DNA of 44,976 nt from an uncultured Lachnoclostridium sp. (lineage in GTDB: Bacteria > Bacillota > Clostridia > Lachnospirales > Lachnospiraceae). Position 1 is the first letter of the stretch. Each line of letters opens with the position of its first letter. The notes beneath the pieces were generated by a model. That model made no database searches, was not told the DNA's origin, and saw only the letters and a program-made list of their open reading frames with translations. Of the stretch, positions 38,496 to 44,710 are shown one piece after another. The stretch lies in assembly GCA_947305875.1 (NCBI GenBank), contig CAMZEW010000001.1, positions 1-44,976 of the forward strand, in the 5' to 3' direction. The translations under genes and the position numbers were made by a program.

Positions 38496-38555
38496 AATAT
38501 TTACTAATAAATGTACGCTACGGTGGTATGTCATTTACGCAAACCGGGGATAGGT

Positions 38556-41213
38556 ATGGGAGATTTCAATTGGAACGGGCTCTTCACAAGATGGAAGCCC
38601 GGTAAGAAGCTGTTCGTTTATTACGGACAGAGCACAACTGAAGACGGCCAGAAGAAGCCCGCCCGGCTCACCGGCAAGTCCTACCGAAAAGCAGGTCTTC
38701 CGGATGACGTTTTGCAGGCGATAGACGGGATTAAGAAAAAGCGCTACACGCTTTTTGAGAACGCGCAGCGTCTGTCAAAGGTTCTCGAGAAGCGTACTGT
38801 CGGAAAGGACAGTCTGGCATCGCTCGTAAACAAGGGCATTATCGCAGGCGTTTCCGACCTGCATGCGTTCCGTTCGTTCATCTGGACGACGGGGGATTAC
38901 CTGAAGCGCACGGGGGCGGAATACGATCGCCTTTCCATCGGGGAACTGACGGCGATTGCGAAGGCCGTGGAAGACGCCGGGTATCTGAATTACCGCGGCG
39001 GTTCTTACTTCCCGGGGCTTTGCAGCACGCCTGATAAGAATATATACTTCCTTCCGTCCGGACTGAACCGCGAGCTTCGTGAGAAGGCGGCGGCGGACGG
39101 CGCGGTTGTCGCCTCGCTGAACCGGGCGCGCAAGGACCTGACGCGGATTAAGCCGGTTATGGAGAATCTCGCGATGGAGCTTTTCGCCGGAACCGCCGGT
39201 GAGAAGACCGAGTTCTTCGAGACGGTGCTTTCCGTCTGGTGCTCACTCGCGATTCTGTCGAAGGAACCGTTCTTCCTGACGGACGGTAAGAAGCCCGTTA
39301 CGAATGCCGAGCCGAAGAAGGCTGCGAAGGCACCCGAGCCTGTGAAGGATATTACGGCCGATGCGAAGACTGAGAAGAAAGAAGCCGTAGCGACCGAAAC
39401 CAAGAAGTCCGAGAAGCCTGCCGCGAAGAAAGCGGAGCCGAAGAAGGCTGACAAGCCGGCAGCGAAGGCAGAAAAGGCCGAGGCGAAAACGGAAAAACCC
39501 GTGAAGGCCGGGGCGAAGAAGGCTGACAAGCCCGCAGCAAAGGCAACCGCTGAGAAGAAGGCTGAGAAACCTGCAGCCGCCGGGACGAAAGCCGCCGAGA
39601 CGGAGAAACCCGTGAAGGCTGAGAAGAAGCCCGCCGCGAAGGCAACTGCCGAGATGAAGGCAGAGAAAACTGCAGCGAAGAAGGCCGAGCCGAAGAAGAC
39701 GGATAAGACGGCTAAGAAAGCCGAGACGAAACCAGCTGAGAAGAAAACCGAGAAGACCCCTGAGAAGACAGCCAAGATAGAAAAACCGGCGAAACCCGCC
39801 GGCAAGACCGCGAAGACGGCCAAGGAAACGAAGGCAGCGAAGAAGCCTTCGAAGCCGAAGCAGCCCGAGCCGCAGCCGACCGAGAATTACATGGTTGCGG
39901 AAGTGGACGGCGAGATGGTCCGGATTCCGATCGGAGACGCGTACAAAGAGGAAACACTTGAAATGCTGTCAAAAAGTTCCATTCCCGAGGCGGTTCTGGC
40001 AGACGCGAAGAAGATTCTGCCGAGACTGTCCGAGATGGGCGGCGAGGTCGACATTCAATATCTATCAAAACGATTAAATGAGTTACAGGAGGATGGTATG
40101 GCTAACAATGATCCCGGAAGAGAAAGAACGGTAGAGGAGCTGATTGCGGAGCTGATGGGCACCGCGCAGCAGCCGAAAGCGGCAGCCCCTGCCCCTGAAC
40201 CTGCCCCGGCACCTGCACCGGCACCCGCGCCGGTGAAAGAAGAGGTAAAGCCTGCCCCGGCACCCTCACCCGTTGAACCCGAGTGGGAAGTGTCCACCAA
40301 CAGCGCAATCAAAAATGATATCGAGCCGGAGTGGGAGGTTTCCCTCGTGAATCCTGCCGCAGCCGTTAAGCCCGCAGCACCCGCTCCTGCGCCGGTTGCA
40401 CCCGCACCCGCAGCAGAGCCCGTGAAGCCCGCAGCGCCTACTCCTGAGGATATTGCAGCCAACGCTGTAATCCCCGAGATTCTGCCTTATATTGCTCCCG
40501 AGCCGGAAGCAGCTCCCGCACCCGCTCAGAAGGTTCCGACTCCCGAAGAGATTGCTGCAAGCGCAGCAAGCCTTGAGAGCCTCTTCCCTTCCTTCACCGC
40601 ACCTGCAGCCGAGGAAGTTAAGCCCGTTGAGCCCGCACCCGTGATTCCCGAGCCTGTGGTAATCCCCGAGCCCGCACCGGTTATTCCGGAACCCGCTCCG
40701 GTTATCCCTGAGCCGACGCCGGTTGTTCCCGCTCCCGAGCCGGTGAAGCCGGTCAGCAGTATCCCGGACATCACTCCGGACGGTGTAAAGCCTGCCGCTA
40801 CCCCGATTGAGACGAACGAAACCAGCAAGGAAGAGATGGACGAGCATGAGGCAGCCGTACGCCGCCGTATGCGTGAGATTCTCGAGCAGAACAAGAAGAA
40901 GCAGCAGGAGAAGGACGAAGTCCGCAGACAGATGGAAGAGCGTCGTCTCGAGGTTGCGAGAAAGCAGGAACAGAGACGTCAGGAAATCCTTGCAAAGCGT
41001 AAAGCCGACTATGAGAAGCTTCTTGCCGAGCAGGAAGATCTTCGTAAGGTTGTGGAAGAGAACAAGAACGCCATCATGGGCGACCGTAAGAAGAAGCGTA
41101 CCGAAGCGCAGAGAAGAATCATGGATATTGAGGATATCATCCTGAAGGAATACCTTGATCTGAAGCGCGGCACGAACGATTATCATACCGGTCTAACGCA
41201 GGAGCTTTATTAA
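38556..41213 (+). CDS. Large hypothetical protein (885 aa). It has a globular N-domain, a Lys/Ala/Pro/Glu histone-H1-like repeat, a small middle domain, Pro/Ala-rich repeats and a charged coiled coil.
   Basis: Long uninterrupted ORF with no TM segment or signal peptide. The start is taken at ATG 38556 (MGDFNWNG...). I recognise no family. Confidence 0.75.
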   Translation: MGDFNWNGLFTRWKPGKKLFVYYGQSTTEDGQKKPARLTGKSYRKAGLPDDVLQAIDGIKKKRYTLFENAQRLSKVLEKRTVGKDSLASLVNKGIIAGVSDLHAFRSFIWTTGDYLKRTGAEYDRLSIGELTAIAKAVEDAGYLNYRGGSYFPGLCSTPDKNIYFLPSGLNRELREKAAADGAVVASLNRARKDLTRIKPVMENLAMELFAGTAGEKTEFFETVLSVWCSLAILSKEPFFLTDGKKPVTNAEPKKAAKAPEPVKDITADAKTEKKEAVATETKKSEKPAAKKAEPKKADKPAAKAEKAEAKTEKPVKAGAKKADKPAAKATAEKKAEKPAAAGTKAAETEKPVKAEKKPAAKATAEMKAEKTAAKKAEPKKTDKTAKKAETKPAEKKTEKTPEKTAKIEKPAKPAGKTAKTAKETKAAKKPSKPKQPEPQPTENYMVAEVDGEMVRIPIGDAYKEETLEMLSKSSIPEAVLADAKKILPRLSEMGGEVDIQYLSKRLNELQEDGMANNDPGRERTVEELIAELMGTAQQPKAAAPAPEPAPAPAPAPAPVKEEVKPAPAPSPVEPEWEVSTNSAIKNDIEPEWEVSLVNPAAAVKPAAPAPAPVAPAPAAEPVKPAAPTPEDIAANAVIPEILPYIAPEPEAAPAPAQKVPTPEEIAASAASLESLFPSFTAPAAEEVKPVEPAPVIPEPVVIPEPAPVIPEPAPVIPEPTPVVPAPEPVKPVSSIPDITPDGVKPAATPIETNETSKEEMDEHEAAVRRRMREILEQNKKKQQEKDEVRRQMEERRLEVARKQEQRRQEILAKRKADYEKLLAEQEDLRKVVEENKNAIMGDRKKKRTEAQRRIMDIEDIILKEYLDLKRGTNDYHTGLTQELY
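39285..39880 (+). repeat. Intragenic degenerate tandem repeats encoding (A/E)KK(A/T)EKPAAK-type units
   Basis: Recurrent DNA strings gccgagccgaagaaggc and gaagaaggctgacaagcc(c/g)gcagc. The antisense ORF 39005-39823 is a compositional shadow. Confidence 0.8.
40168..40815 (+). repeat. Intragenic Pro/Ala-rich repeat region. It contains a (AP)n run, duplicated EPEWEVS units, and four VIPEPAP-type units at 40637-40750.
   Basis: Read directly from the translation and from the 21-nt DNA periodicity. Confidence 0.8.
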
Positions 41214-41242: not shown

Positions 41243-41764
41243 ATGGGTATTTTTGATAAGATCATGAACTCCATCTTCAACGAAACGAAGAAGGCTGTTG
41301 ATTCGGTTGTTACTCCCGGTAAGAAGCCGGCGGCAACGCCCGCTCCCACGCCTGCCCCGCAGGCAGCTGCTCCGGTTGTGAATACCCCCGCTGCGGATCC
41401 CGATGCCGAGCGGATCTACCGCGAAGACGGCGGTTATGATTTCAATGACAGCTTCCATCGTGACGCGGCATACTTCCGGAACATTCTGGTAAAGAATTTC
41501 CCGGACTGGAGCCTTGAAGAGAACGTTCCGATTACCCGCATCGATGCGAGCGCGCATCCGAAATGCATTCCGGTAACGTTTATGATGAGCAAAACCGGAC
41601 AGAACTTCGCATTTTTCGTAATGCCGATCAACAAGACGAACGGACTTCCTTATAAGGGATCCAAGCAGGCATTGAAGGCAGCCGGAATCAAGACCGTGCA
41701 TTGCATCGAATGCTACAAGAACGAAGAAAGTTATGTGGTGAACCGTATCCGGAACGCCATGTAA
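41243..41764 (+). CDS. Hypothetical 173-aa protein with an amphipathic N-terminal helix, a Pro/Ala linker and a roughly 115-aa alpha/beta C-domain
   Basis: AAGGAGG SD 7 nt upstream of the ATG and a 29-nt gap after the 885-aa gene. I recognise no family. Confidence 0.75.
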   Translation: MGIFDKIMNSIFNETKKAVDSVVTPGKKPAATPAPTPAPQAAAPVVNTPAADPDAERIYREDGGYDFNDSFHRDAAYFRNILVKNFPDWSLEENVPITRIDASAHPKCIPVTFMMSKTGQNFAFFVMPINKTNGLPYKGSKQALKAAGIKTVHCIECYKNEESYVVNRIRNAM

Positions 41765-41925
41765 TACAGGTCTTTGACCGAGTCGGATAGGGAAGAACGC
41801 ACATGGATGCACCTGCAGGGGGCGCAGCATAACCATCAAAACGGTTTTGCAGGTAGCCGGTTATGTATCGCCCGGTATAGCAAAATTGCTATTTTAAAGC
41901 ACTTCTTCTCTAACCATAAGAGTAA

Positions 41926-41957
41926 AGGAGGCCCCGCTTGCGGGAGACCTCCTTTTT
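41926..41957 (+). promoter_or_regulatory. Hairpin plus U-run that overlaps the RT ribosome-binding site and candidate TTG start (attenuator or translational-control element)
   Basis: AGGAGG(41926-31)-C-CCCG-cttg-CGGG-aga-CCTCCT(41948-53) followed by TTTTT. The 5' arm is the only SD for the RT gene. Confidence 0.6.
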
Positions 41958-43182
41958 ATCGGATTATATGATGGATTTTTTGGAAACCATCGGCGACGGC
42001 AGTCAGTGGGAACGGTTCTACGAGTACTGCAAAGCCGGGGAACACGCAACGAAACAGGAACTCTCGGAACTGCGGCAGTTTATCGACTGCGGCAGTTTTT
42101 TGACGTGGGACGGACACTTCCGTTCAGGGAAGCCCTTCCCGTATGCGGAAAGGACGGTTCTTAACAAGAAAGGAACCGATAAGAAGCGCGTTGTCTATAT
42201 GTTTCCGGGCGAGGCGGGGATTGTCCTTAAGTATCTTTCCTACCGGCTGCATGAGTATGACGGCATCTTCTCGGACAATCTGTTCTCGTTCCGCGTGAAC
42301 CGCGGCGTGAAGAAGGCGGTCGGGGATTTGCTTTCCGTGCCGGGGCTTTCGGAGAAGTACGTGTATAAGCTTGATATTCACGATTATTTCAATTCGGTCG
42401 ACGTCGAGCGGATCATTCCGCTGATTGAGCGGGTGCTCGGGGCGGAGCAGCCGCGGTTCTGCGGTTTCCTGAAGGAATTTCTACGGAATCCCTACGTGAC
42501 GGACGGCGGGAAGATCATTGAAGACCGGAAGGGCATCATGGCCGGCAATTCGCTGTCCTCATTTCTCGCAAATCTGTACCTTTCGGACATGGACCGGTAC
42601 TTCTCGGAGCAAGGGGCCGTCTACGCGCGCTACTCGGACGACATCATCGTGATGGCGGATACGTACGAGGAACTTGAGCAGTACCGCGAGGAGATTCTTA
42701 CAAGGCTTTCCGACAAGGATATGACCGTCAACCCGAAGAAGGTGTTCTATGCAAAGCCCGGCGAGCCGTGGGATTTCCTCGGAATCACCTTCCATGCGGG
42801 CAAGGTTGACGTGGCGCGGGCATCGGTTGAGAAGATGAAGGGGAAGATCCGCCGCAAGGCGCGGGCGCTGTACCGCTGGAAGGTTAAGAAGGGCGCGTCC
42901 GACGAGCAGGCAATCCGCGCGTACATCCGGCATTTCAACCGCAAATTCTACGACAACCCGAACAAAAGCGAGCTCACCTGGTGCCGCTGGTTCTTCCCGG
43001 TCATCAACACCGACGAGAGCCTTAAGGAACTGGACGCGTACCTTCTTGAGAACATCCGCTTCCTTGCGACCGGCAGGCACACGAAAGCCAACTACCGCCT
43101 GCGTTACGAGACAATCAAGGACTACGGTTTCCGAAGCCTTGTGCACGAATACTACGCAATTGCAAACGCCCCGTCGATGTGA
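41938..43182 (+). CDS. Stand-alone reverse transcriptase (RT palm/fingers plus a thumb-like tail; no other domain)
   Basis: Motifs RT1-7 are all present in order, with the catalytic YSDD at 42631-42642. The start is either TTG 41938 (SD at 6-nt spacing, but inside the hairpin) or ATG 41968 (no SD). Confidence 0.88.
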   Translation: MRETSFLSDYMMDFLETIGDGSQWERFYEYCKAGEHATKQELSELRQFIDCGSFLTWDGHFRSGKPFPYAERTVLNKKGTDKKRVVYMFPGEAGIVLKYLSYRLHEYDGIFSDNLFSFRVNRGVKKAVGDLLSVPGLSEKYVYKLDIHDYFNSVDVERIIPLIERVLGAEQPRFCGFLKEFLRNPYVTDGGKIIEDRKGIMAGNSLSSFLANLYLSDMDRYFSEQGAVYARYSDDIIVMADTYEELEQYREEILTRLSDKDMTVNPKKVFYAKPGEPWDFLGITFHAGKVDVARASVEKMKGKIRRKARALYRWKVKKGASDEQAIRAYIRHFNRKFYDNPNKSELTWCRWFFPVINTDESLKELDAYLLENIRFLATGRHTKANYRLRYETIKDYGFRSLVHEYYAIANAPSM

Positions 43183-43186
43183 TAAA

Positions 43187-44710
43187 ATGATTAACATGAG
43201 AAAGAATGTCCAAAACCGAATCGCGAGCATCCTGATTGCGGTCCTCCTCCTGATTACGGAGGCGGGCGGCAGCTTCTTTGCGTGCTTCCGCGGAGCCGCC
43301 GCGGAGGAGGGTGAGGAAGAGAAGCCGATTCCGACGATTGAAGCGATTCTTAAGGGCGGGCCCGCCGTCAGCGCGAAGGCGGGAATCGTTATGGAAGTCC
43401 GCTCGGGCGCCATTCTTTTTGCGAAAAATGCGACGGAATCCCTTCCGCCGATCAGCCTGACGAAGCTTATGACCGCGCTTCTTGTTCTTGAAGAAGCGAA
43501 CATGACCGATACGGTCAAGTGCTCGTATGCGTCGATTAACGGAATCGGAAGCAAAGTGACGCGAGTCGGTCTTGTCGCAGACGAACGCCTTGCGGTCGAA
43601 GACATGCTGTACGCCTGTCTCGTTGCGTCGGCCGACGAAGCAACATATGCGCTCGGCGAGCACACTGGCGGAAGCATGCGGAAGTTTTTGAAAATGATGA
43701 ACGCCCGGATGGAGCAGCTCGGCGGCGTGAATACGACATTTAACAGTGCGACCGGAACCGGCGGAACGACCCAGACCAGTTGCGCTTACGATATTGCGCT
43801 GATTGCGAGCAGGCTCGGCATGCGGAATGATTTCCTGCAGATTGCCGGCGTCAAATGGTATCAGATTCCCCAGACGAACCTGAAGGAATCGCGTACCATC
43901 GCGCAGACGCACAAATTCATCCGGCAGACCTTGAAATACGATTTTGCGATAGCGGGCAAGTCGGGCGGAGCAGCACCCGACGGGACCTACAATCTCTGCA
44001 CCTACGCGGAGCGCGACGGCATGCGGCTCGTCGCCATCGTGATGGGAAGCGCCTCCGACGAGGCGTCCTACGATGACTCCGTAACGATGCTTAATTATGC
44101 TTTTGAGAACTACAAATGCTACACGATGCGCGCCTTAGAGCGCACGATCGACCCGGATTACGCGGGCTTCTTCAGCGAATGCCAGATGTTTACGGGCAAG
44201 GAACATGACACGCTTTCGATTGACCCCGCCGCGACCGTTGTGGTGCCGCACGGAGCCGACCTGACGAAGATCAGTAAGAAGGTCGAGTATATTGTTCCTG
44301 AGGATTATGTCCACGGGGAGAATGTAATCGGGCGGCTCGAGTTCTTCTATGAGGATGCCGCAATCGGCACGACGGACATCATCTTCTACAACGAGGAGTA
44401 TCCGCTTTCCCAGAAGGATTTCAACGCGATGTGGCCGAAGTTCCTGCTGTCACCGTCGCTTCTTGAATCGGTGGGCGGACCGGGAACCGCGACTGTTGTC
44501 AAACTGACCGGAACGAAGAAGGCTACGCCGACGCCGACGCCGCTTCCGAAGAGCGTAATACGCTGGGAAGGTACGTCGAAACAGGCGGCCGCGACTAGAG
44601 CGGGAGTCATATTCGGGGCAATCTTCATCGGACTGATTGTCCTTGTCTATATTGTCGTCCCGATGATTGTGATGCGGCGTGCGCCGAAGAGTAAAGTGAG
44701 AAGAAGATAA
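43187..44710 (+). CDS. Serine-type D-Ala-D-Ala carboxypeptidase (peptidase S11, PBP5-like) with an N-terminal signal/anchor and a C-terminal TM anchor
   Basis: SxxK motif as ISLTKLMT, KSG triad as AGKSGG, a PBP5_C-like region, a Pro/Thr linker, and TM segment IFGAIFIGLIVLVYIVVPMIV. The ATG lies 4 nt after the RT stop. Confidence 0.82.
   Translation: MINMRKNVQNRIASILIAVLLLITEAGGSFFACFRGAAAEEGEEEKPIPTIEAILKGGPAVSAKAGIVMEVRSGAILFAKNATESLPPISLTKLMTALLVLEEANMTDTVKCSYASINGIGSKVTRVGLVADERLAVEDMLYACLVASADEATYALGEHTGGSMRKFLKMMNARMEQLGGVNTTFNSATGTGGTTQTSCAYDIALIASRLGMRNDFLQIAGVKWYQIPQTNLKESRTIAQTHKFIRQTLKYDFAIAGKSGGAAPDGTYNLCTYAERDGMRLVAIVMGSASDEASYDDSVTMLNYAFENYKCYTMRALERTIDPDYAGFFSECQMFTGKEHDTLSIDPAATVVVPHGADLTKISKKVEYIVPEDYVHGENVIGRLEFFYEDAAIGTTDIIFYNEEYPLSQKDFNAMWPKFLLSPSLLESVGGPGTATVVKLTGTKKATPTPTPLPKSVIRWEGTSKQAAATRAGVIFGAIFIGLIVLVYIVVPMIVMRRAPKSKVRRR

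What the first reader, a model, noticed from the sequence alone, without database searches (positions are those of the whole stretch)
41765..41967. Structured ~200-nt leader upstream of the RT: the SD is sequestered in a terminator-like hairpin, there are further stems, and one frame is stop-free
Three structural elements are visible.
- The only Shine-Dalgarno for the RT (AGGAGG, 41926-41931, 6 nt before TTG 41938) forms the 5' arm of a hairpin. Its 3' arm, CCTCCT (41948-41953), lies in codons 4-6 and is followed by TTTTT. The element would either terminate an upstream RNA 10 nt before ATG 41968 or occlude RT translation.
- Upstream lie a 7-bp stem, ACCTGCA...TGCAGGT (about 41810-41856).
- There is also a 6-bp AT-rich hairpin, ATAGCA-aaat-TGCTAT, followed by TTT (about 41877-41895).

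One + frame is open across the entire interval (41774-41971), although no credible start or SD is present.

This resembles a dedicated ncRNA or riboregulator attached to the RT, possibly a template RNA. It does not look like a simple spacer.
Basis: seen in the sequence. Interest (0 to 1): 0.6.

Follow-up and report, generated by a model that had tools for sequence, protein, structure and literature searches.

The report
Known RT-5 RNA beside UG26 enzyme
The "leader" in front of this reverse transcriptase gene is a real, conserved, pseudoknotted small RNA of about 131 nt that Rfam already lists as the orphan motif RT-5. It is the partner RNA of an uncharacterised UG26-type reverse transcriptase, not a ribosome-binding-site switch, and what the pair makes is still unknown.

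Summary
Positions 41807-41906 match Rfam RF03026 (RT-5 RNA) at 81.9 bits against a cut-off of 45.7. The gene downstream is a full-length UG26 reverse transcriptase (RT) by its PADLOC profile (E 7e-161).

- **Conservation:** The motif lies beside 75 of 78 informative RT relatives. Eleven of 11 RNA-first hits in sister genera have the RT next door.
- **The "7-bp stem":** It is a covarying pseudoknot, paired in 97.7% of cells.
- **The AT-rich hairpin:** It is helix P5 of the motif.
- **Closing helix:** A 13-bp purine/pyrimidine helix outside the Rfam model (41785-41797 with 41903-41915) makes the element about 131 nt.
- **The AGGAGG/CCTCCT hairpin:** It is lineage-specific, shared only with the closest relative, and looks like an intrinsic terminator. 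The conserved RT start is ATG 41968, so SD sequestration is not supported.
- **The open frame:** It is at chance level and not conserved.
- **Upstream gene:** A 173-aa nuclease-fold protein gene precedes the RNA in about 80% of loci, including loci where the RNA is not upstream of the RT.

The most likely role, by analogy with DRT2, DRT9 and DRT10, is scaffold and template for the RT. This is inferred, not shown. This scan has already reported the same RT-5/UG26 pairing in at least eight other genomes.

The parts
41785..41915 (+). Whole ncRNA element (about 131 nt): the RT-5 core plus a closing helix.
   Evidence: Rfam hit. My own covariance model finds it in 75 of 81 sources. The minimum-energy fold of the region closes with this helix.
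41807..41906 (+). Match to Rfam RF03026 (RT-5 RNA), model positions 1-104 of 104.
   Evidence: 81.9 bits against a gathering score of 45.7, E 1e-16. It is the only copy in the window's own genome.
41785..41797 (+). P1 5' strand (purine-rich, GGAUAGGGAAGAA) of the closing helix.
   Evidence: Pairs with 41903-41915 in 12 of 13 positions. In 69 distinct homologues the helix has a median of 13 contiguous pairs, against 8 when shuffled and 9 when partners are swapped, with 50 distinct strand sequences. Duplex energy is -22.0 for own partners and -15.8 kcal/mol for swapped partners.
41799..41810 (+). P0 mini-hairpin (GCA ... UGC).
   Evidence: In the alignment rows the same position reads GCA/UGC, GCG/CGC, GCAGC/GCUGC or GCGGG/CCCGC in different clades. 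No formal count was made.
41811..41817 (+). Pseudoknot 5' strand, ACCUGCA.
   Evidence: Pairs with 41848-41854. 97.7% of cells are paired. The outer pair is G-C in 40 sequences and A-U in 31. The pseudoknot was not part of the model that made the alignment.
41820..41873 (+). Composite stem: P2 (41820-24 with 41869-73), P3 (41827-34 with 41859-66) and P4 (41843-46 with 41855-58). The P4 loop, 41847-41854, carries the pseudoknot 3' strand UGCAGGU (41848-54).
   Evidence: Consensus structure and covariation. An invariant G-U plus C-G pair lies next to an internal loop in 75 of 75 sequences.
41877..41892 (+).
   Evidence: All 5 modelled pairs show changes on both sides.
41893..41902 (+). Single-stranded joint UUUAAAGCAC (family consensus UUYAAAG). 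It is the longest conserved unpaired stretch.
   Evidence: U41893, U41894 and A41897 are at least 93% conserved.
41903..41915 (+). P1 3' strand (polypyrimidine, UUCUUCUCUAACC).
   Evidence: In many Bacteroidales this strand runs almost into the RT ATG.
41924..41957 (+). Terminator-like hairpin (stem 41924-36 with 41941-55) with a U5 run at 41953-57.
   Evidence: -19.8 kcal/mol, z -3.1. The stem and loop are identical only in L001. Unrelated hairpins with a T-run occupy the same position in L020, L024, L061, L068 and L069.
41968..43182 (+). UG26 (class 2 UG/Abi) reverse transcriptase, 404 aa from ATG 41968.
   Evidence: PADLOC RT_UG26 E 6.8e-161, profile positions 1-396 of 398. The next best profile is UG4 at 116 bits. 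Pfam RVT_1. 186 relatives in genome contigs.
41243..41764 (+). 173-aa partner protein: N-terminal amphipathic helix, disordered Pro/Ala linker, and a C-terminal domain of about 100 aa.
   Evidence: A profile HMM finds the family in 70 of 91 loci. Its stop codon usually lies 8-80 nt before the RNA. The AF2 C-domain has pLDDT above 90. Foldseek matches to PD-(D/E)xK folds are weak.
41774..41971 (+). Open frame of 65 codons. It is not a gene.
   Evidence: chance level, and not conserved in the homologues.

Best explanation
Positions 41785-41915 encode a discrete structured non-coding RNA of the Rfam RT-5 family. Its layout is:
- a 13-bp closing helix, P1;
- a mini-hairpin, P0;
- a three-part stem, P2-P4, whose apical loop forms a 7-bp pseudoknot with the strand just 3' of P0;
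- a hairpin, P5;
- a conserved single-stranded joint, UUYAAAG.

It is the RNA component of a UG26 (class 2 UG/Abi) reverse transcriptase module. That module usually also includes the small nuclease-fold protein encoded just upstream, at 41243-41764.

Shown here: family membership, the structure with its covariation, a near-obligate two-way association with UG26 RTs, and independence from a fixed position upstream of the RT.

Inferred: by analogy with the characterised class 2 systems DRT2, DRT9 and DRT10, the RNA binds the RT as a scaffold and carries the template for an unconventional cDNA product. P1 would stabilise the RNA, as the basal stem SL1 does in DRT10.

In this lineage the RNA appears to be transcribed with the 173-aa gene, because no promoter is visible in the 20-nt gap. 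The GC-rich hairpin with its U5 run at 41924-41957 most likely acts as a leaky intrinsic terminator. It would define the RNA's 3' end and keep RT mRNA, translated from ATG 41968, far below the RNA in abundance.
For: Rfam RF03026 matches at 81.9 bits against a cut-off of 45.7, over the full model. The RT matches PADLOC RT_UG26 at E 6.8e-161 over its full length.

**Association**
- RT-5 scores above its gathering cut-off in 15 of 16 sampled RT-homologue loci.
- My own covariance model finds the RNA in 75 of 81 sources. Three of the misses have the contig cut at the RT.
- Working from the RNA instead: RF03026 occurs in 13 of 120 sampled sister genera, once per genome. All 11 fetched hits have a UG26-like RT adjacent.

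**Structure**
- 89.4% of cells are paired and 24 of 29 pairs show compensatory changes. No shuffle out of 500 reaches the observed values. Sliding the partner by one column drops pairing to 36-44%.
- The pseudoknot is 97.7% paired although it was not in the model.
- The closing helix has a median of 13 contiguous pairs, against 8-9 in controls.

**Not a cis leader of the RT**
- The order is RT, then the 173-aa gene, then the RNA in L026, L027 and L032. L023 has the same order, with the pair about 3 kb downstream of the RT.
- In L042 the pair is on the opposite strand, 3 kb from the RT.
- Loci without the 173-aa gene (L015, L017, L018, L068) carry a canonical TTGACA/TTGATT-17-TATAAT promoter. 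It would place the transcription start at the 5' end of P1 (read from sequence).

**Terminator reading**
- Hairpin of -19.8 kcal/mol with a U5 run.
- Unrelated hairpins with T-runs sit at the same position in at least 5 other lineages.

**Analogy**
- Class 2 UG RTs use ncRNA templates (DRT2, DRT9, DRT10).
- The DRT10 ncRNA is 143 nt, needs its basal stem for stability, and holds a short single-stranded template.
- ncRNA reads exceeded RT mRNA more than 1000-fold in DRT2 and DRT9 (PMC9226505).

**Weak hint of expression**
- One 156-nt contig from a bovine-gut RNA library covers 41766-41912. Its differences keep P4 paired, changing U-G to U-A.
Against: - No cDNA, template or RT-RNA binding has been shown for any UG26 system. 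I found no paper on RT-5 or UG26 function.
- Mestre et al. 2022 rated the defence association of UG26 as inconclusive.
- I could not identify a template. The conserved unpaired nucleotides are few: A41826, G41875, U41876, U41893, U41894 and A41897.
- The terminator is not a family feature. In 22 of 68 loci the RT start lies within 15 nt of P1. In those loci the RNA and the RT message must be one transcript, and the RNA could also act in cis.
- ATG 41968 has no Shine-Dalgarno, whereas TTG 41938 has a perfect one. The start codon in this lineage is therefore not proven.
- The RNA-library contig cannot show RNA ends or exclude DNA carry-over.
Confidence: 0.65

Rival explanations
1. Cis-acting riboregulator. 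The AGGAGG/CCTCCT hairpin sequesters the only Shine-Dalgarno and the TTG 41938 start in its loop, so the structured leader controls RT translation or read-through. One variant is that the P1 3' strand acts as an anti-terminator when the RNA is not folded.
For: - AGGAGG lies 6 nt before the in-frame TTG 41938, and ATG 41968 has no SD.
- The same hairpin and an in-frame TTG are kept in L001.
- Without the terminator's 3' arm, the P1 3' strand can pair with AAGAG...AAGGAGG at -9.6 kcal/mol.
- In 22 of 68 loci the RNA abuts the RT start.
Against: - The hairpin is found only in the window and L001. Spacers elsewhere are unrelated, 0 to about 650 nt long, and where hairpins occur the SD lies outside them.
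- The conserved RT N-terminus starts at ATG 41968.
- The 10-codon extension differs between the window and L001 by two compensating 1-nt indels, which behaves like non-coding DNA (read).
- The RNA is downstream of the RT, or on the other strand, in at least 5 loci.
- The terminator fold (-18 to -20 kcal/mol) dominates the alternative pairing.
Confidence: 0.12
2. A retron. The closing helix would be the a1/a2 repeat, the RNA an msr-msd, and the RT would make branched msDNA primed from a 2'-OH of a guanosine.
For: - The architecture resembles a retron: an inverted repeat of about 13 bp closes a structured RNA next to an RT, and a small effector-like gene is adjacent.
- Weinberg et al. 2017 speculated that many RT motifs take part in retrons.
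Against: - The RT is UG26, not retron-type. The NCBIfam retron models score 56 bits or less against cut-offs of 235 or more, and the PADLOC retron RT profiles score far below UG26's 533 bits.
- The core is a pseudoknotted multi-stem fold, not an msr hairpin set followed by a long msd hairpin.
- The characterised relatives in class 2 copy an internal ncRNA template (DRT2, DRT9, DRT10), by protein priming in DRT9 and DRT10.
Confidence: 0.07
3. The interval encodes a small protein, from the open frame 41774-41971, or is a 3' UTR or spacer whose stems are incidental.
For: One + frame is open over 65 codons.
Against: - The frame has no SD and only a TTG start.
- 7% of shuffles have such a frame. 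31 of 73 homologous elements have no open frame, and where one exists the frame differs between loci.
- The substitution pattern is compensatory base-pairing, and indels are not in multiples of three.
Confidence: 0.02

Closest known systems
Rfam RF03026, RT-5 RNA (one of the RT-1 to RT-19 motifs of Weinberg et al. 2017, PMC5737381)
   Same: Full-length match well above the gathering score. It has the same stems (P2-P4, P5), the same conserved loop UUGCAGG and 5' strand GCNCCUGC, and lies next to an RT gene.
   Different: The Rfam model covers 104 positions. The element here extends on both sides through a covarying closing helix of 10-17 bp, plus a P0 hairpin. The model's structure line leaves the pseudoknot strands unpaired. 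The paper gives no function and does not name the RT group. Here the group is UG26.
DRT10 (UG17) ncRNA-RT-SLATT system (bioRxiv 10.1101/2025.10.16.682844 and 10.64898/2026.04.29.721553)
   Same: It is a class 2 UG RT with a structured ncRNA of about 140 nt closed by a basal stem, and a three-part module with a small accessory protein. UG17 is among the next-best profiles for this RT. The basal stem is needed for RNA stability, and a short single-stranded template lies between stems.
   Different: The RT group differs: the UG17 profile scores 103 bits against 533 for UG26. The accessory protein here is a soluble nuclease-fold protein, not a SLATT membrane protein. The ncRNA folds are unrelated. 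No product or template is known for UG26.
DRT2 (UG2) and DRT9 (UG28) ncRNAs
   Same: Each is an ncRNA encoded beside a stand-alone class 2 RT, essential for function, and far more abundant than the RT mRNA (PMC9226505). Both are copied repeatedly into cDNA.
   Different: There is no sequence or structure similarity. RT-5 has no long template loop of the DRT2 kind and no U-tract of the DRT9 kind in a single-stranded region.
Retron msr-msd
   Same: Terminal inverted repeat closing a structured RNA adjacent to an RT.
   Different: The RT clade is different, the core is pseudoknotted, and there is no evidence of branched msDNA.

Membership tests
Rfam RF03026 (RT-5 RNA) | Covariance-model score at or above the curated gathering score of 45.7 bits. 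| tested here: met
   81.9 bits, E 1e-16, model positions 1-104 of 104.
Rfam RF03026 (RT-5 RNA) | The consensus helices are maintained by compensatory change among relatives. | tested here: met
   24 of 29 pairs show changes on both sides, 89.4% of cells are paired, and 0 of 500 shuffles reach the observed values. RNAalifold finds 12 of 19 pairs compensatory.
Rfam RF03026 (RT-5 RNA) | Located next to a reverse transcriptase gene. | tested here: met
   The hit ends 61 nt before the RT ATG, on the same strand. The RNA is found in 75 of 81 sources. All 11 fetched RNA-first hits have the RT adjacent.
UG26 reverse transcriptase (class 2 UG/Abi, Mestre et al. 2022) | Best, full-length match to the UG26 profile, clearly separated from other UG groups. 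| tested here: met
   PADLOC RT_UG26 scores 533.5 bits over profile positions 1-396 of 398. The next best is UG4 at 116 bits.
UG26 reverse transcriptase (class 2 UG/Abi, Mestre et al. 2022) | Stand-alone RT with no fused extra domain. | tested here: met
   Only RVT_1 is found in Pfam, in a 404-aa protein.
Class 2 DRT-type ncRNA-templated system (DRT2, DRT9, DRT10) | The RT copies part of its ncRNA into cDNA. | not testable with these tools
   This needs cDNA sequencing or biochemistry. No template could be named from conservation.
Class 2 DRT-type ncRNA-templated system (DRT2, DRT9, DRT10) | Protects against phage. | not testable with these tools
   The literature rates UG26's defence association as inconclusive (PMC9226505). 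The RNA's patchy spread, 13 of 120 sister genera, fits an accessory module but proves nothing.
DRT10 (UG17) system | UG17-type RT with a SLATT effector. | tested here: not met
   The UG17 profile scores only 103 bits. The neighbouring 173-aa protein has no significant Pfam or NCBIfam match, SLATT included.
Retron | Retron-clade RT. | tested here: not met
   The NCBIfam retron models score far below their cut-offs, 56 bits against 235. The PADLOC retron RT profiles score far below UG26.
Retron | Branched msDNA primed from a conserved guanosine. | not testable with these tools
   No data.
Intrinsic (Rho-independent) terminator, for 41924-41957 | A GC-rich stem-loop directly followed by a U-run. 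| tested here: met
   A 13-pair stem of -19.8 kcal/mol with UUUUU at 41953-41957. The simple scanner did not list it, which I attribute to the bulged 3' arm.
Intrinsic (Rho-independent) terminator, for 41924-41957 | Transcript 3' ends map to the U-run. | not testable with these tools
   Only assembled contigs were available, and these cannot show RNA ends.

The most novel reading that the evidence does not exclude
RT-5 RNA plus the UG26 RT would form a further, still undescribed DNA-writing system of the class 2 UG family. The RT would copy a short internal template over and over, in the manner of telomerase or DRT10, into repetitive single-stranded DNA. By elimination the candidates are the conserved single-stranded joint UUYAAAG between P5 and P1, or the polypyrimidine P1 3' strand once unwound. 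The co-encoded PD-(D/E)xK-fold 173-aa protein would then sense, process or be activated by that DNA. In this lineage a leaky terminator would set the RNA-to-RT ratio.
Probability: 0.25. Interest if true: 0.75.

Novelty: new member of a known kind. Interest (0 to 1): 0.4.

Why it matters
Each class 2 UG reverse transcriptase studied so far (DRT2, DRT9, DRT10, and DRT3a in DRT3) has revealed an unexpected way of writing DNA from a partner RNA. UG26 has no known product, template or phenotype, and its RNA has been an orphan Rfam entry since 2017.

This locus adds a clean, compact example: the 173-aa gene, a 131-nt RNA, a terminator and the RT within 2 kb. It comes with a full structural map (closing helix, pseudoknot, invariant G-U pair, conserved joint) that says which mutations to make.

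As a discovery it is limited. The RNA family is catalogued, and this scan has already described the RT-5/UG26 pairing in at least eight other genomes.

Tried and rejected
- **Complex prediction, RT with the 173-aa C-domain:** no verdict (score 0.14, mark 0.32). This is not evidence either way.
- **Foldseek of the 173-aa model against PDB:** no match at E <= 0.001. There were only weak matches to PD-(D/E)xK folds (Hjc, TnsA, BstEII, R2 endonuclease domain; probability 0.8-0.95). I therefore call it "nuclease-fold", not a nuclease. The alignment shows no conserved catalytic D/E/K triad.
- **Annotation of the 173-aa protein:** Pfam, NCBIfam and a PDB profile search gave nothing significant. The search for homologous proteins returned only close relatives labelled "hypothetical".
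- **RNA-seq:** only three runs were returned, and all are assembled contigs. Flanks left uncovered in the RNA libraries cannot be read as absence of mRNA. One RNA-library contig over the ncRNA is only a hint.
- **Template search:** conserved unpaired columns give no direct repeat like the two ACU triplets of DRT10. A UUC...UUC pattern around the joint is not discriminating, because the P1 strand is pyrimidine-rich anyway.
- **Sensitive model search of L025, L030 and L031, filters off:** no RNA within 4 kb. L031 has the 173-aa gene cut by the contig end just after the RT, so the RNA may lie beyond it.
- **Promoter scan:** no sigma-70-like site lies between the 173-aa gene's stop and P1 in the window.
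- **Literature:** searches for RT-5, RF03026 and UG26 function found nothing. The 2017 supplement is not held, so I could not check whether the pseudoknot or P1 was drawn there.
- **Anti-terminator idea:** it is possible on paper at -9.6 kcal/mol. It is confined to this lineage and much weaker than the terminator.
Full report
**What is at the coordinates**

The interval 41765-41967 lies between the stop of a 173-aa ORF (41243-41764) and an RT ORF. The RT ORF can be read from TTG 41938 or ATG 41968 and ends at 43182.
- The AGGAGG/CCTCCT hairpin has its stem at 41924-41936 with 41941-41955, TTG 41938 in the loop, and a U5 run at 41953-41957. It folds at -19.8 kcal/mol, z -3.1.
- ACCTGCA (41811-17) is complementary to TGCAGGT (41848-54).
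- ATAGCA-aaat-TGCTAT lies at 41877-41892.
- The + frame 41774-41971 is open.
- The whole interval folds better than shuffles, z -2.9.

**Identity**

A scan of Rfam places 41807-41906 in RF03026, the RT-5 RNA. The score is 81.9 bits against a gathering score of 45.7, E 1e-16, and covers the full model. RT-5 is one of 19 RT-associated motifs reported without a function by Weinberg et al. 2017 (PMC5737381).

The RT is a full-length member of group UG26 of the UG/Abi family. PADLOC RT_UG26 scores 533 bits at E 6.8e-161, and the next group, UG4, scores 116 bits. Pfam finds only RVT_1. Mestre et al. 2022 (PMC9226505) listed 35 UG26 members, rated their defence association as inconclusive, and described no ncRNA for them. 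I found no later paper on UG26 or RT-5. The closest solved structures by sequence profile are group II intron RTs and a 499-aa chain deposited only as "RNA-dependent DNA polymerase", followed by Drt2 and retron RTs. None is close.

**Association in both directions**
- From the protein: 186 relatives were found in one-genome-per-species contigs, and 80 loci were fetched. They come from Lachnospiraceae, other Clostridia, Bacteroidales and Erysipelotrichaceae, mostly rumen or gut MAGs.
- RT-5 scores above its gathering cut-off in 15 of 16 sampled loci.
- A covariance model I built finds the RNA in 75 of 81 sources. Three of the six misses have the contig cut at the RT, and three (L025, L030, L031) have no copy within 4 kb.
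- From the RNA: RF03026 occurs once in the window's own MAG and in 13 of 120 sampled sister genera, always once per genome. All 11 fetched hits have a UG26-like RT adjacent. This patchy, single-copy spread fits an accessory module.

**Structure**

On the 75-sequence alignment, 89.4% of cells form standard pairs. Of 29 pairs, 24 show changes on both sides. No shuffle out of 500 reaches the observed values, and sliding the partner by one column drops pairing to 36-44%.

It is 97.7% paired, and its outer pair is G-C in 40 sequences and A-U in 31. This holds although the pseudoknot was not part of the model that made the alignment. The AT-rich hairpin is P5, and all five modelled pairs covary. An invariant G-U plus C-G pair flanks an internal loop in 75 of 75 sequences, which is typical of a recognition site.

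Outside the Rfam model I found a closing helix. A purine-rich strand sits immediately 5' of P0 (window 41785-41797) and pairs with the conserved polypyrimidine "tail" (41903-41915). The strands differ between clades but stay complementary. Examples are GGAUAGAGAAGAA with UUCUUCUCUAUCC, GAAAAAGGGGA with UCCCCUUUUUC, AAUGCGGGAGG with CCUCCCGCAUU, and AAAGCGGCGGA with UCCGCUGCUUU. The helix has a median of 13 contiguous pairs in 69 distinct sequences, against 8 when shuffled and 9 when partners are swapped. Duplex energy is -22.0 for own partners and -15.8 kcal/mol for swapped partners. The full element is therefore 41785-41915, about 131 nt.

**Why it is not a leader that gates RT translation**

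(a) The conserved RT N-terminus begins at ATG 41968. Profile position 1 aligns to residue 2, and tblastn matches start at residue 1-2 on an ATG in most loci.

(b) The 10-codon TTG extension is kept open only in the nearest relative, L001. There it differs by two compensating 1-nt indels, which shift the peptide out of frame between them (read).

(c) The spacer between P1 and the RT start varies from 0 to about 650 nt. The median is about 30 nt, and it is 15 nt or less in 22 of 68 loci. The AGGAGG hairpin occurs only in the window and L001.

(d) The RNA follows the RT in L026, L027, L032 and, about 3 kb downstream, L023. It lies on the opposite strand 3 kb away in L042.

(e) Four loci (L015, L017, L018, L068) have a canonical sigma-70 promoter that would start transcription at the 5' end of P1.

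What recurs after the RNA in independent lineages is a GC-rich hairpin of unrelated sequence, with a T-run in L020, L024, L061, L068 and L069. The window's hairpin is therefore best read as a lineage-specific intrinsic terminator for the RNA. Only 10 nt separate its U-run from the ATG, so RT expression must come from read-through. That would give much more RNA than RT message, as was measured for DRT2 and DRT9. This step is inferred. A kinetic anti-terminator, the P1 3' strand pairing with AAGAG...AAGGAGG at -9.6 kcal/mol, is possible on paper but weak and confined to this lineage.

**The open frame**

The frame is real, but 7% of composition-matched shuffles have one. Of 73 homologous elements, 31 have no open frame, and the frame differs among the rest. 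The substitution pattern is one of base-pair compensation. It is not a gene.

**The upstream gene**

The 173-aa protein belongs to a family found in 70 of 91 loci by profile HMM. Its stop codon usually lies 8-80 nt before the RNA. The gene and the RNA stay together when the RT is elsewhere.

The protein has an N-terminal amphipathic helix, a disordered linker, and a C-domain of about 100 aa ending in a conserved motif, INF....PNE..YV..RI.K.L. The AF2 model is confident for the C-domain, with pLDDT above 90. Foldseek gives only weak matches to PD-(D/E)xK folds, and no catalytic triad is conserved. Pfam, NCBIfam and PDB profile searches are silent. I do not know whether this is the "YcjD-like" cluster that Mestre et al. 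saw in 9 of 35 UG26 loci. The window has no promoter-like site in the 20 nt between this gene and P1, so the RNA is probably co-transcribed with it here.

**Expression**

Only assembled contigs were available. One 156-nt contig from a bovine-gut RNA library covers 41766-41912. It carries L001-like variants that keep P4 paired. This is a hint that the RNA exists as an abundant species, no more.

**Mechanism**

Three things are shown: membership of RT-5, a pseudoknotted closed architecture under strong selection, and a near-obligate partnership with UG26 RTs that does not depend on gene order.

The function is inferred from the characterised class 2 UG systems. DRT2, DRT9 and DRT10 all use their ncRNA as scaffold and template for repeated reverse transcription. 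The DRT10 ncRNA is 143 nt, needs its basal stem for stability, and carries a 10-nt single-stranded template. By analogy, RT-5 is most likely the scaffold and template RNA of the UG26 RT, with P1 acting as the stabilising basal stem.

I could not name the template. The only unpaired stretches of 8 nt or more are a variable linker (41835-41842) and the conserved joint UUYAAAG (41893-41902).

My odds are about 0.95 for "RT-5 ncRNA partner of a UG26 RT", about 0.65 for the full reading including scaffold/template and terminator, 0.12 for a cis riboregulator, 0.07 for a retron, and 0.02 for coding or incidental structure.

**Novelty**

The RNA family and the RT group are both catalogued, so this locus is a new member. 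The link between RT-5 and UG26, the closing helix and the conserved 173-aa partner are not in the papers I could search. However, this scan's own earlier follow-ups reached the same reading on at least eight other genomes. I consulted those notes only after reaching my conclusions, and I tested each point myself here.

Noticed in passing
window 41243-41764: The 173-aa protein belongs to an unannotated family found in 70 of 91 UG26 loci. It has an N-terminal MGLFDK-type amphipathic helix, a disordered linker and a confident C-domain with weak PD-(D/E)xK-fold matches. The gene always ends just before the RT-5 RNA.
   Followed up: partly
L026:4001-6434, L027:4001-6219, L032:167-2405, L023:4001-9142, L042:751-5203: A Lachnospiraceae subclade has the permuted order RT, then the 173-aa gene, then the RNA. 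In L042 the protein-RNA pair is on the opposite strand, 3 kb from the RT. The tight unit is therefore protein gene plus RNA, not RNA plus RT.
   Followed up: partly
L011:3728-3998 and L012:3824-3998: The spacer between the RNA and the RT has expanded to 170-270 nt. In L011 it holds about three tandem copies of a GC-rich unit of about 35 nt (GATTGCGGACGGAGCGCAGTTGGCAGCAG...).
   Followed up: no
L049, L057, L063, L066 (between the RNA and the RT start): Several Bacteroidales loci carry GC-rich repeat-like inserts (GACACGAGACACGG / GTCTCGTGTC motifs) between the RNA and the RT. These may be small repetitive extragenic elements.
   Followed up: no
window 38511-41213: This 900-aa protein has no Pfam family. 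It is conserved upstream of the module only in the closest Lachnospiraceae loci (L001-L008), so it reflects local synteny and is not part of the RT system.
   Followed up: partly
window 43046-44710: A Peptidase_S11 (D-Ala-D-Ala carboxypeptidase) ORF as listed overlaps the end of the RT gene. It is conserved downstream in only 7 close loci, so it is probably unrelated to the RT module.
   Followed up: no
L080, L059, L006, L007 and many Bacteroidales loci (RT start): In many loci, including Firmicutes, the RT ATG follows the polypyrimidine P1 strand directly, with no Shine-Dalgarno. The family seems to tolerate or favour weak RT translation initiation.
   Followed up: no
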